Made by a program: the position numbers. 64,000 nucleotides of DNA from Heteronotia binoei. Taxonomy: Eukaryota. The DNA is taken from positions 107,074,001 through 107,138,000 of the forward strand of contig NC_083229.1 of assembly GCF_032191835.1 (NCBI RefSeq), given 5' to 3'. Below are positions 1 to 3,000 of the stretch, piece after piece (positions within the stretch are counted from its first letter, which is position 1; every line of letters starts with the position of its first letter).

Positions 1-3000
1 TGCGAGGGAAGGACACTCCCAAGGCTGCCTGGGACGCGTTGAGTGCGGTGCATGTTAGCACCACTGCTGGTTCCCTCATGGCCTTGACAAGGAGGATGTT
101 CCGCACCGTTATGCCGGCTGGAGGGTGTGTGAAAGATCACATCAAACGGCTAACGGACTGTTTCGTTGAGCTGGAGGCAAGAGGCAAGACTGTAGCTCCA
201 GACGACAGAGTGTACATTTTGCTGTCGTCGTTGCCACCTGAGTACACTCCCCTGATAACTTCTCTGGAGACGGTGGACGTAGCGACCCTGACCATGGAAT
301 ACGTCTGTGCCCACCTGCTTGACTTCCAAGAGAGAATTGCGGCCGTGAGCTGTCCGGGGGTGTCGGCCAGGCAGCGTGCTGTTATCGGTGTGTCCGGGAA
401 GACAGCCAAGAATGAGCCAGCTTTTGCTGCTGGCAGGCGTCCGAAGGTGGAGGAAGTGGAGCCGACTGCGTTTGCAGTCCGTCGCTGCTATGGATGCGGG
501 TCGTCGCAGCACCTGCTCCGAGCTTGCCCTGAGAGGGAGAAGAGGCGGGGGCGTGTGCGGCGAGAGCGGAGGACCGCCAGCCCGTGTGAGGAAGCAACCC
601 GGCTGGTCACGTCTGCAGTAGAGAGCACAGGGTCTGCTTGGATTTTAGACTCCGGGGCAACGAGCCATCTCTGCTGCGAGAAGGAGTTGTTGAAAAACAT
701 TGACAGTCCTGAGCATAAGTATGTGAGATTGGCTGATGGGACCACTGCCAATTCTGTTTGCTCAGGCAATGTGGAATTTCCTGCACTGAAATGTATGTTG
801 CAAAATGTGTTGTATGTACCCTCACTGCAGTCTAACCTGTTGAGTGTTAGCACACTGGTTGACCAGGGATACCAGGTGAGATTTGAGAAAACCTGCTGCA
901 AAATCCTGGGAGGTGGGGGAAAGTTGCTTGTGACAGGAAAGAGGGAAGGTAAACTGTATGTGGTCCAGAGTGATTGTGCCCAGGTGGCTCAGGTGTCGAA
1001 TGAGCCTGTGCACAATAATTGTATACATTTGCTCCATAGGAGACTCGGGCACTGCGGATTTAGGGCGTTAAAGAAAACCCTGGAGCTTGTGCCTAGTTTG
1101 AAAGTAAATCCTTGCAAATGTTACTTGGATTGCCAGGTCTGCAAGAAGACCAAAAGCAAGGCGTGTGCTGTTGCTAAGGAAAGCTCAAGGGAAAGCACAC
1201 GAGCCCTGGAACTAGTCCATTTAGACGTTATTGGCCCATTGCCAAAGAGTCTGTCGGGGAGGAGATACTGCTTGGTGGCCACCGACGACCACACGAGGTA
1301 CGCGTGGGTTTTCACCATGGTGCATAAGTCTGAGGTGTATAAGACATTCACCAAGTGGGTCAAAGCAGTGGAGAGACAATTAGGGGTTAATCTCCTGGCT
1401 GTACAAACCGACAGAGGGGGGGAATTCTTATCTAACCAGATGAAACGTTGGCTGGAGAACAAGGGCATCGCCCACCGTCTGACGAACCCGGCAACGCCCC
1501 GAGAAAATGGGCATGGGGCTGTATTGCAGAATGTGATGTATTGCATGTTAGAGGATGCACAACTGCCAATGTCCTATTGGGCAGAAACCATACATGCAGC
1601 TGTTTTTTTGCAAAATAGGGTTTGGTGTAATACTGTGAAAAATGTGCCTTACAGGTTACTGTTGAACAAGACCCCAGATTTGAGTTCTTTAAAAGTCTTT
1701 GGGTCACGGGCTCGGGTTGGCATCCACTCCACGAGTAGCGGGGAGGGGGATGTCCGGGCAGAGAGCCTAATTTTTCTGGGCTACAAGCCAAGGGCCAGGT
1801 GTTATCGCTTCTGCAATAGCAAAAGCAAGATAACACTTAATAAGAGTGCCCAGTTCAATGAAGAAAGCAGCTGGCCAAGGTTGCACTCCTTGCAGAAACA
1901 ATTTGTCCTGCTGCCAAGTAGCGATAACGATGTTGGAGCGCAGCCCAGAACTCCAGCCCAGGAGGTGGCACCCAGTGGGGCTGGAGAAGGTGAGCCGAAT
2001 GCTGGCACAGAGCCCGACGAGCAGAGTCAGGAGGCAGAGCCTCAAATGCAGGAACTGGAGGTAAAGTGTGAGAGTCAGGAGGTTCAACACCCAATTACAG
2101 GGGCAGAGCAACCAGCCCAGGAGGTGGGAACAGAGCAACCCGAAGAAGACAAAGCTGGTCCAAGCACAGGGCCACGGGTGTCTGCCAGGTCCACCAAAGG
2201 CCAACGTCCCGCTAGGTACAAGTGTCCCTATGTCACTCTGACTGTCAATCCAGACCCACCCGGATTAGAGGAAATGTTAAAAGAAAAGGCTAAGAAATGG
2301 AAAGCCTGGGTGGCAGAGTGCGAGGCAAGGGAGAAGGAGGCTGAAGCCAAGCGTCTGAAAGAGCTGGCTGAACAGGAACACGATGATGTGTTTTACAATC
2401 ATGATGAGTTCCTGAACGAATTCCGGAAAGGGTTCCGAGCTACGTAAATATGAACTGTAATGTTGCTGGTGGACATGTATGTAAACTGTGTAAAGTGTTT
2501 TGGTGCACTGGGTTTAAATAGATTAGGAGGTGTGTTGGAGCAAGAATCTACATAAACCCAGTCTGACAGCTACAGTATGACAGCTGGTGATCTAGCTGCC
2601 AGGCTAGGTCACAGTGACCTGATCAGCAGACCGGCTTGAGCCGGCAGAAGCCAAGTGATGCAATCTGCTGAGTCAGCATGGCCAGGATTGGCTGCTTGGA
2701 CTATATATGATCTGTGTGTGCATCACACAGGTCTCTCCCTGTGAGATGGTGGTTAGGCGAAGCACTTTGTCCGTGGAGGTGATATTGTATAGACTGCACA
2801 AGAGAGCACTTGTTGTGTATATATGTTAATACACCTTTTGGCACTAGTTGCACGTGTAAGCCTGATTTTCTTTCCTGAAGCCCTGTGTCGGGCAAGTCAT
2901 CTCCCTCACTCTGCTACTCCCGCTCCGACAGAAATTCCAATATCAATGAACATTTGTCAAATTACACTGCATATGTAATGCCAAGGGTAGCTTTAGCATT

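What the first reader, a model, noticed from the sequence alone, without database searches (positions are those of the whole stretch)
3..2930. Copia element with an open Gag-PR-IN frame but no RT/RNaseH and a clean deletion of the integrase catalytic Glu
Seen: at least 815 uninterrupted codons encode Gag, protease and integrase. The stop (2447) is only ~70 bp from the PPT and 3' LTR, so there is no room for the ~500-aa RT-RH that follows IN in Ty1/copia. The usual NG-VAER-KNRTL segment reads NG-HGAVLQNV, consistent with an in-frame 4-codon loss removing the E of DDE, while both Asp residues and HHCC remain. The tail is an acidic Q/E/P linker and a charged helix. Inference: this may be a non-autonomous lineage that supplies its own Gag and protease but borrows RT and IN in trans, or a particle-forming or restriction-type Gag protein still under selection. 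Two frame-preserving losses without any stop are more suggestive than random decay.
Basis: partly seen in the sequence, partly recalled or inferred. Interest (0 to 1): 0.66.

Follow-up and report, generated by a model that had tools for sequence, protein, structure and literature searches.

The report
Copia retrotransposon copy missing reverse transcriptase
A young-looking copy of a Copia-type jumping gene in a vertebrate-like genome has lost its reverse transcriptase and one essential integrase residue, so it cannot move on its own; such crippled copies are common, and nothing found here shows it is more than that.

Summary
Bases 3-2444 are one open frame of 814 sense codons that runs off the left edge of the window. 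It encodes Copia-type Gag, protease and integrase.

No Copia RT or RNase H is present in any frame of 1-3300, or anywhere in the 64 kb. The integrase lacks four residues, including the third catalytic carboxylate. That Glu is present in 196 of 197 relatives' matches, including all six closest checked. The Gag CCHC, the protease Asp, the HHCC and both integrase Asp residues are kept. A 398-bp LTR-like block with a purine tract before it follows the stop.

The element is therefore non-autonomous by structure. The argument for selection is weak:
- Fewer than 30 codons follow the last residue that aligns to any relative. 18% of shuffles stay open as long.
- A single short loss is in frame one time in three.
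- The integrase's other departures from conserved columns are mostly shared with the closest relative, a lizard protein at 43% identity.

No near copy exists in the protein collections. No eukaryotic genome could be searched, so whether this is one copy or a lineage stays open. It is ordinary until a census shows otherwise.

The parts
3..2447 (+). Single gag-pol open frame of a Copia-type element: 814 sense codons plus the stop, cut at its 5' end by the window edge. pol is broken twice. One large internal deletion removes RT and RNase H. One short in-frame loss in the integrase catalytic core removes the third catalytic carboxylate. There are no stops and no frameshifts.
9..335 (+). Gag capsid-like domain (aa 3-111). 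About 80-90 residues of the Gag N-terminus lie off the window, judged from where relatives start to align.
   Evidence: Pfam Retrotran_gag_2, E 7e-17. Chain named 'Copia VLP protein' 8vvw_A, E 6e-8. Helical, pLDDT above 90. Relatives' alignment starts.
486..527 (+). Gag CCHC zinc knuckle (C162, C165, H170, C175)
   Evidence: Invariant columns. Kept by the window and by 181-184 of 185-186 relatives' matches.
639..872 (+). Aspartic protease barrel (aa 213-290), active-site Asp 216 present
   Evidence: Pfam Pol_BBD, E 4e-20. Asp kept; 191 of 193 relatives' matches carry it. The window keeps 11 of 11 highly conserved columns.
954..1154 (+). Integrase N-terminal HHCC zinc domain (aa 318-384)
   Evidence: Pfam gag_pre-integrs, E 1e-6. 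H345, H350, C377 and C380 are kept.
1200..1613 (+). Integrase catalytic core (aa 400-537). Both Asp residues are present. The catalytic Glu is absent through a four-residue in-frame loss.
   Evidence: Pfam rve, E 9e-13. Integrase chain 7z0h_W, E 1e-12. Foldseek to retroviral integrases, E 6e-14. Counts. pLDDT dips from 95-98 to 84 in two ten-residue blocks of the core.
1665..1874 (+). Integrase C-terminal SH3-like domain (aa 555-624)
   Evidence: Pfam SH3_retrovirus, E 2e-12. Beta strands at 569-619.
1890..2444 (+). C-terminal tail (aa 630-814): an acidic Q/E/P-rich disordered linker, then two helices. Its first part aligns with the linker and lead-in that precede RT in full-length relatives. 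Its last few dozen residues match nothing.
   Evidence: alignments; Atlas, best 0.88
2520..2530 (+). Purine-rich tract just 5' of the LTR-like block (polypurine-tract-like)
   Evidence: Read directly from the sequence
2533..2930 (+). LTR-like block of 398 bp with TG...CA ends. Terminal inverted repeat matches in 8 of 9 bases. TATATA at 2702 and 2818. No AATAAA or ATTAAA. The partner LTR is off the window, so LTR identity is inferred.
2931..2935 (+). GAAAT, the five bases after the LTR-like block. This is a possible half of a target-site duplication that cannot be checked.

Best explanation
This is the 3' two-thirds of one copy of a Ty1/copia-type LTR retrotransposon in a CpG-depleted, vertebrate-like genome.

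Shown: its single gag-pol frame still encodes an apparently complete Gag capsid and zinc knuckle, an aspartic protease with its Asp, and an integrase with its zinc domain, both Asp residues and the SH3 domain. One large internal deletion has removed RT and RNase H. One four-residue in-frame loss has removed the integrase's third catalytic carboxylate.

From established knowledge of DDE integrases and of LTR-element replication: such a copy cannot copy its RNA or integrate on its own.

Inferred: the copy is young. Both losses arose either during the error-prone reverse transcription that made this copy or soon after insertion. The open frame reflects youth rather than selection. If the copy is transcribed, it could only be a passenger, or a competitor, of a full-length relative that supplies RT, RNase H and an active integrase.
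For: - Domain content and order.
- No Copia RT/RH in any frame of 1-3300 or in the whole window.
- The Glu is missing here, but present in 196 of 197 relatives' matches and in all six closest relatives checked.
- All other catalytic and zinc residues are kept.
- Youth: no stop or frameshift in 814 codons. CpG observed/expected is 0.55 in the frame, against 0.12 in the next 5 kb and 0.28 in the rest of the window.
- Integrase was under normal constraint until recently. Identity to the closest relative is highest in the integrase: zinc domain 61% and core 50%, against Gag 39% and protease 40%. Of the 8 highly conserved columns that the window misses and that relative covers, the relative also misses 7.
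- Chance covers the open tail: 18% of shuffles stay open as long.
- A passage in PMC3248453 says LTR elements easily become non-autonomous and that incomplete pol genes are common.
Against: - There are two deletions, no other disruption and no frameshift. That is somewhat fewer defects than plain post-insertion decay would usually give with a kilobase-scale deletion.
- All 11 misses at highly conserved columns fall in the integrase (34 of 45 kept). Gag and protease keep 19 of 19. Fisher p is 0.025, or 0.049 without the three columns of the gap. This could hint at a lineage whose integrase matters less.
- Neither the copy number nor the age could be measured. The 5' LTR is off the window and no genome of this organism could be searched.
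Confidence: 0.55

Rival explanations
1. The copy belongs to a non-autonomous Copia lineage. That lineage would supply its own Gag and protease, plus an inert integrase, and be copied and inserted by the enzymes of a full-length partner with matching LTRs.
For: - Gag and protease keep 19 of 19 highly conserved columns, and every catalytic or zinc residue outside the lost Glu is intact.
- The terminal cis elements look whole.
- Both losses leave a long open frame.
- The literature notes that genomes often hold an autonomous element together with a related non-autonomous one (PMC3248453 passage).
Against: - No second copy in the window.
- No protein above 43-44% identity in 5.8 billion clustered proteins or 1.84 billion representatives, whether full length, longer or shorter, so no sister copy is in hand.
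- The integrase's pattern of conservation is that of a working integrase up to the single short loss.
- The open tail is within chance.
Confidence: 0.28
2. The frame is kept by the host as a gene. It could be a Gag-based restriction or particle-forming protein, or a dominant-negative integrase. The analogy is to the Ty1 self-encoded inhibitor p22 and to a domesticated yeast Ty1' Gag.
For: - A long open frame with an intact capsid, zinc knuckle and protease.
- There is precedent for Copia-type Gag fragments that restrict their own family: PMC4599808 and PMC10951436, seen only as search listings with the starts of their abstracts.
Against: - The LTR-like block, purine tract and possible target duplication still sit directly behind the stop, as in a plain insertion.
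- No orthologue or paralogue with this architecture in the protein collections.
- The tail has no look-alike.
- Nothing here measures selection or expression.
Confidence: 0.07
3. One or both losses are assembly artefacts, for example a collapse between repeated stretches inside a full-length element.
For: None positive. It cannot be excluded without reads.
Against: - The window has no N.
- The frame stays open through the region.
- No direct repeat family of note lies around the 3' end.
- A clean loss of a whole number of codons is not a typical consensus error (inference).
Confidence: 0.05

Closest known systems
Copia-type polyprotein fragment of the lizard Podarcis lilfordi (P0042, NCBI name 'Retrovirus-related Pol polyprotein from transposon TNT 1-94')
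   Same: Best match of all searches: 43% identity over query aa 63-574, source and name. Same Gag-protease-integrase order. It shares 7 of the 8 unusual residues at highly conserved columns that it covers.
   Different: It keeps the catalytic Glu. It is a 584-residue gene model that stops inside the integrase and has gaps in Gag, so it says nothing about RT. At 43% identity it is a different family, not a sister copy.
Full-length Copia polyproteins P0044 (1303 aa, 36% identity) and P0046 (1065 aa, 35%), both from unnamed sources
   Same: Collinear with the window's protein from Gag to the lead-in before RT.
   Different: P0044 goes on through RT and RNase H, which the window lacks. P0046 continues into RT but breaks off within it. 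Both keep the integrase Glu.
Solved Pseudoviridae proteins: integrase chain 7z0h_W (recalled to be yeast Ty1 integrase) and 'Copia VLP protein' 8vvw_A
   Same: Sequence matches with E 1e-12 (integrase, aa 375-578) and E 6e-8 (capsid, aa 9-180). The predicted fold matches retroviral integrases.
   Different: Distant in sequence. The solved integrase aligns with extra residues where the window is short.
Non-autonomous LTR retrotransposons in general (LARD, TRIM, TR-GAG and BARE-2 types of plants; these names are recalled and come from no call)
   Same: LTR-bounded elements that lack RT and depend on a partner. The general principle is stated in PMC3248453 (passages).
   Different: Those types are defined as multi-copy families, and most have little or no coding capacity. 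Here there is one copy with Gag, protease and nearly all of the integrase. My four literature searches listed no description of a Gag-protease-integrase Copia derivative without RT in a vertebrate. Only the 15-20 titles and abstract starts per search were seen.
Ty1 p22 copy-number-control protein and the domesticated Ty1' Gag restriction factor of yeast
   Same: Copia-type Gag-derived proteins that act on their own family in trans (PMC4599808, PMC4551931, PMC10951436; listings and abstract starts only).
   Different: Those are Gag fragments with shown activity. Here there is a whole Gag-protease-integrase frame inside an element that still has its terminal structures, with no functional or evolutionary evidence.

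Membership tests
Ty1/copia (Pseudoviridae) LTR retrotransposon | Copia-type Gag | tested here: met
   Retrotran_gag_2, E 7e-17. 'Copia VLP protein' 8vvw_A, E 6e-8. CCHC knuckle kept.
Ty1/copia (Pseudoviridae) LTR retrotransposon | Domain order protease - integrase - RT - RNase H, with integrase before RT | tested here: inconclusive
   Protease then integrase is met. The tail aligns with the lead-in that precedes RT in full-length relatives. RT and RNase H themselves are absent, so the order can only be inferred.
Ty1/copia (Pseudoviridae) LTR retrotransposon | RVT_2-type reverse transcriptase and RNase H | tested here: not met
   No Pfam hit at E <= 0.1. No profile match at E <= 10 in six frames of 1-3300, nor at E <= 1 in 1288 pieces of the whole window. 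22 of the 41 relatives carry RVT_2. The copy is a derivative of the family, not a complete member.
Ty1/copia (Pseudoviridae) LTR retrotransposon | Integrase with HHCC zinc domain and complete D,D,E triad | tested here: not met
   The HHCC and both Asp residues are present. The Glu is absent, against 196 of 197 relatives' matches that carry it.
Ty1/copia (Pseudoviridae) LTR retrotransposon | Two LTRs with TG...CA ends, a primer-binding site, a polypurine tract and a 5-bp target duplication | tested here: inconclusive
   Present: a 3' LTR-like block with TG...CA ends inverted in 8 of 9 bases, and a purine tract. The 5' LTR, the primer-binding site and the other half of the duplication lie off the window. 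There is no second copy in the window.
Non-autonomous LTR retrotransposon family (mobilised in trans) | Several copies at different sites that share the same internal losses | not testable with these tools
   No eukaryotic genome collection was open. The protein collections give nothing above 43-44% identity. The scan of bacterial and archaeal genomes found no relative.
Non-autonomous LTR retrotransposon family (mobilised in trans) | An autonomous partner with matching LTRs and primer-binding site in the same genome | not testable with these tools
   Same limits. Nothing of the kind is in the 64 kb.
Domesticated Gag or integrase gene of the host | Loss of the element's terminal structures and a fixed orthologous locus under purifying selection | tested here: inconclusive
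   The terminal structures are still present at the 3' end, which speaks against domestication. Orthology and selection could not be tested.

The most novel reading that the evidence does not exclude
A Copia sub-lineage of a non-mammalian vertebrate that has shed RT and RNase H but keeps an open Gag-protease-integrase frame with a catalytically dead integrase. It could persist either as a parasite of a full-length partner or as an inhibitor of that partner. Inhibition would work by co-assembly of its Gag into particles or of its inert integrase into intasomes. That would make it a vertebrate counterpart of the self-restriction known from yeast Ty1.
Probability: 0.12. Interest if true: 0.6.

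Novelty: new member of a known kind. Interest (0 to 1): 0.25.

Why it matters
As it stands, the finding matters little. Internally deleted LTR retrotransposon copies are routine, and this one adds a divergent Copia lineage (best database match 43% identity) to the thin record of such elements in non-mammalian vertebrates.

It would matter more if a census showed many copies with both losses. That would be a protein-coding, integrase-dead, RT-less Copia family. Such a family would be a natural case for asking which proteins a retrotransposon must make in cis and which it can borrow. It would also allow asking whether defective Gag or integrase proteins dampen their own family in animals, as Ty1 p22 does in yeast.

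Tried and rejected
1. RT/RH displaced by a nested insertion or hidden in another frame. Rejected: the profile of 11 relatives finds nothing in six frames of 1-3300 at E <= 10. In the whole window its only match beyond the frame itself is an unrelated retrovirus-like integrase.

2. Relaxed constraint on the integrase as a sign of a lineage that no longer needs it. The window keeps 53 of 64 highly conserved columns, against a median of 62 in 130 relatives; 3 of the 130 score as low. All 11 misses are in the integrase. However, the closest relative shares 7 of the 8 misses it covers, and domain identities rank normally. I read this as a lineage trait, not decay of this copy, and did not use it as evidence.

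3. Frame preservation by the large loss. Not supported.

4. Look-alikes of the tail. The protein Atlas on aa 690-814 gave a best score of 0.88, below the 0.9 lead level. The nearest cluster with a family had RVT_2 in 14% of members, at score 0.82, which is chance level.

5. Near copies in protein collections. None (41 hits, at most 34% identity; best 43%; 16 short hits, at most 32%). One search timed out.

6. Names and sources of the closest clusters through the listing of cluster members. Only P0042's name was obtained.

7. Scan of bacterial and archaeal genomes. 48 pattern matches, none a relative. I did not use the second scan that was allowed, because that collection holds no eukaryotes.

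8. Rfam and tRNA scans of the window. No hits.

9. The bacterial-type promoter and terminator scan of 2400-3000. No hits, and it does not apply to a eukaryote.

10. Literature searches for a described Gag-protease-integrase Copia derivative. Nothing in the listings. PMC3442997 passages held nothing of use.

Not checked:
- Metagenome contigs and viral contigs, which were closed.
- Any eukaryotic genome.
- The 5' LTR, primer-binding site and target duplication.
- Reads and expression.
- Supplementary files of papers, which were not consulted.
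Full report
**What is there**

Translating bases 3-2450 on the + strand gives 814 sense codons and then a stop at 2445-2447. The frame is open from the first full codon of the window, so its start lies off the window. The window has no N, and no second copy of bases 1-3000.

Pfam finds five domains, in this order:
- Copia-type Gag, aa 3-111
- protease barrel, aa 213-290
- integrase zinc domain, aa 318-384
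- integrase core, aa 400-499
- retroviral-type SH3 domain, aa 555-624

Pfam finds no RVT_2 and no RNase H at E <= 0.1. Among solved structures, the best sequence matches are an integrase chain (7z0h_W, E 1e-12, which I recall to be yeast Ty1 integrase) and 'Copia VLP protein' (8vvw_A, E 6e-8).

An AlphaFold2 model built on 72 sequences has mean pLDDT 77.5. It shows:
- folded Gag (1-116), protease (212-322), integrase (341-537) and SH3 (569-619)
- a disordered stretch at 630-751
- helices at 755-797 and 800-809

Foldseek places the model with retroviral integrases (PFV, RSV; best E 6e-14).

**The missing RT and RNase H**

A profile built from 11 relatives (1299 positions) matches the frame only over profile positions 83-737. 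It finds nothing else in six frames of 1-3300, even at E <= 10 with the filters off. Over 1288 stop-to-stop pieces of the whole 64 kb, the only other match is the integrase of an unrelated retrovirus-like stretch near 63 kb. So RT/RH is neither hidden in another frame nor displaced downstream within the window.

The first part of the tail aligns with the linker and lead-in that precede RT in full-length relatives. The last few dozen residues match nothing.

**The integrase Glu**

The window has a four-residue gap where relatives carry the third catalytic carboxylate:
- 11 of 11 relatives carry it.
- 14 of the 14 that reach the column carry it. One of the 15 relatives does not reach it.
- 196 of 197 domain matches among 190 relatives carry it. 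The single other exception is P0128.

The six closest relatives checked (P0042, P0140, P0064, P0044, P0046, P0047) all keep it. The closest align on both sides of the gap. The window keeps the Gag CCHC, the protease Asp, the HHCC and both integrase Asp residues. pol is therefore broken twice, by one large deletion and one short in-frame loss, with no stops and no frameshifts.

**The 3' end**

The stop is followed after 72 bases by a purine tract (2520-2530). After 85 bases comes a 398-bp block (2533-2930) with TG...CA ends that are inverted in 8 of 9 bases. TATATA occurs at 2702 and 2818, and GAAAT follows the block. This is what a 3' LTR with its polypurine tract looks like. Without the 5' partner it remains an inference.

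**Relatives**

The protein collections hold many Copia polyproteins: 52,766 representatives at E <= 1e-3. None is close. The best are:
- P0042 at 43% identity. It is a 584-residue protein of the lizard Podarcis lilfordi that NCBI names after transposon TNT 1-94.
- P0044 at 36% identity, 1303 aa, full length with RT and RNase H.

The word-indexed searches gave at most 34% identity among proteins of similar length and 32% among shorter ones. The scan of bacterial and archaeal genomes found no relative. The tool that lists cluster members was switched off.

**Is the openness more than chance?**

For a random sequence, yes. For a recent copy of an active element, no.
- After the last residue reached by any of the best 150 relatives, fewer than 30 codons remain. 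18% of shuffles of that region stay open as long. The large loss need not preserve the frame.
- The short loss is in frame with a prior of about one in three.
- CpG observed/expected is 0.55 in the frame, against 0.12 in the next 5 kb and 0.28 in the rest of the window. This fits a copy that has not sat long in a CpG-depleting genome.

I asked whether the integrase shows relaxed constraint. The window keeps 53 of 64 highly conserved columns, against a median of 62 in 130 relatives. Gag keeps 8 of 8, protease 11 of 11 and integrase 34 of 45. Fisher p is 0.025, or 0.049 without the gap's columns. But P0042 also misses 7 of the 8 such columns that it covers. Identity to P0042 is also highest in the integrase: 61% in the zinc domain and 50% in the core, against 39% in Gag and 40% in protease. 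So these departures are a trait of the lineage, and the integrase looks normally constrained up to the single short loss.

**How it most likely works**

Shown: the copy can encode Gag, protease and an integrase that lacks one of its three catalytic residues. It has no RT or RNase H.

From established knowledge of DDE integrases and LTR-element replication: it can neither copy nor insert itself.

Inferred: it is a young defective copy. Its deletions arose at reverse transcription or soon after insertion. If transcribed, its RNA could only ride in particles of a full-length partner, and its proteins could join or disturb them.

I give 0.55 to the plain defective-copy reading, 0.28 to membership of a propagating non-autonomous lineage, 0.07 to host co-option and 0.05 to an assembly artefact.

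**Comparison with what is known**

By Gag, protease, integrase and end structure it derives from a Ty1/copia element. It fails two defining features of a complete member: RT/RNase H and the full D,D,E triad.

Non-autonomous LTR elements are a known kind (PMC3248453 passages; the type names LARD, TRIM, TR-GAG and BARE-2 are recalled). The defining multi-copy test could not be run.

Yeast Ty1 p22 and a domesticated Ty1' Gag show that Copia-type Gag fragments can restrict their own family (PMC4599808, PMC4551931, PMC10951436; listings and abstract starts only). This is an analogy, not evidence.

Four literature searches listed no vertebrate Gag-protease-integrase Copia derivative without RT (only the listed titles and abstract starts were seen).

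**Setting and limits**

The rest of the window carries:
- kinase and death-domain exons
- an alpha/beta-hydrolase exon
- a tubulin exon
- a broken gammaretrovirus-like stretch

These come, and CpG is depleted, so the genome is vertebrate-like. I do not take the contig for human. Passages of PMC4350176 say that Copia elements are absent from mammals and birds and present in fish, amphibians and reptiles, and the nearest relative is a lizard protein.

Copy number, the 5' LTR, the target duplication, the age, selection and expression all stay unchecked.

Noticed in passing
window 57279-63519 (+): Gammaretrovirus-like provirus pieces: Gag_p30 (59334-59894), retroviral protease (60289-60606), RVT_1 (60606-61412 and 61294-61710), RNase H with integrase zinc domain (61706-62998) and integrase core (63049-63519). 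pol is spread over several stop-to-stop pieces, so it is broken. No env was seen before the window ends.
   Followed up: partly
window 21227-24135 (+) and 32655-33056 (+): Four protein-kinase exon pieces and a death-domain exon on the same strand. This looks like one kinase-plus-death-domain gene. A likeness to RIPK1 is recalled, not tested.
   Followed up: no
window 43223-43486 (+) and 52068-53150 (-): An alpha/beta-hydrolase exon piece, and a large tubulin exon (Tubulin and Tubulin_C, E 1e-40 to 1e-45).
   Followed up: no
window 12931-17930: CpG-island-like stretch: CpG observed/expected 0.58 and GC 0.48, against 0.12-0.37 in the other 5-kb blocks. It holds a 270-residue open frame (16943-17752, +) with no Pfam match.
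   Followed up: no
window 6495-6803 (-): Weak CCDC90-like match (E 3e-5, 24 bits, below Pfam's cut-off of 33.5) in a 103-residue piece, 3.6 kb downstream of the element.
   Followed up: no
window 26309-26977 (+), 34058-34693 (-), 35221-35886 (-), 57279-58190 (+): Open frames of 212-304 residues with no Pfam match. The last lies just upstream of the retrovirus-like Gag_p30 and may be the front part of that gag.
   Followed up: no
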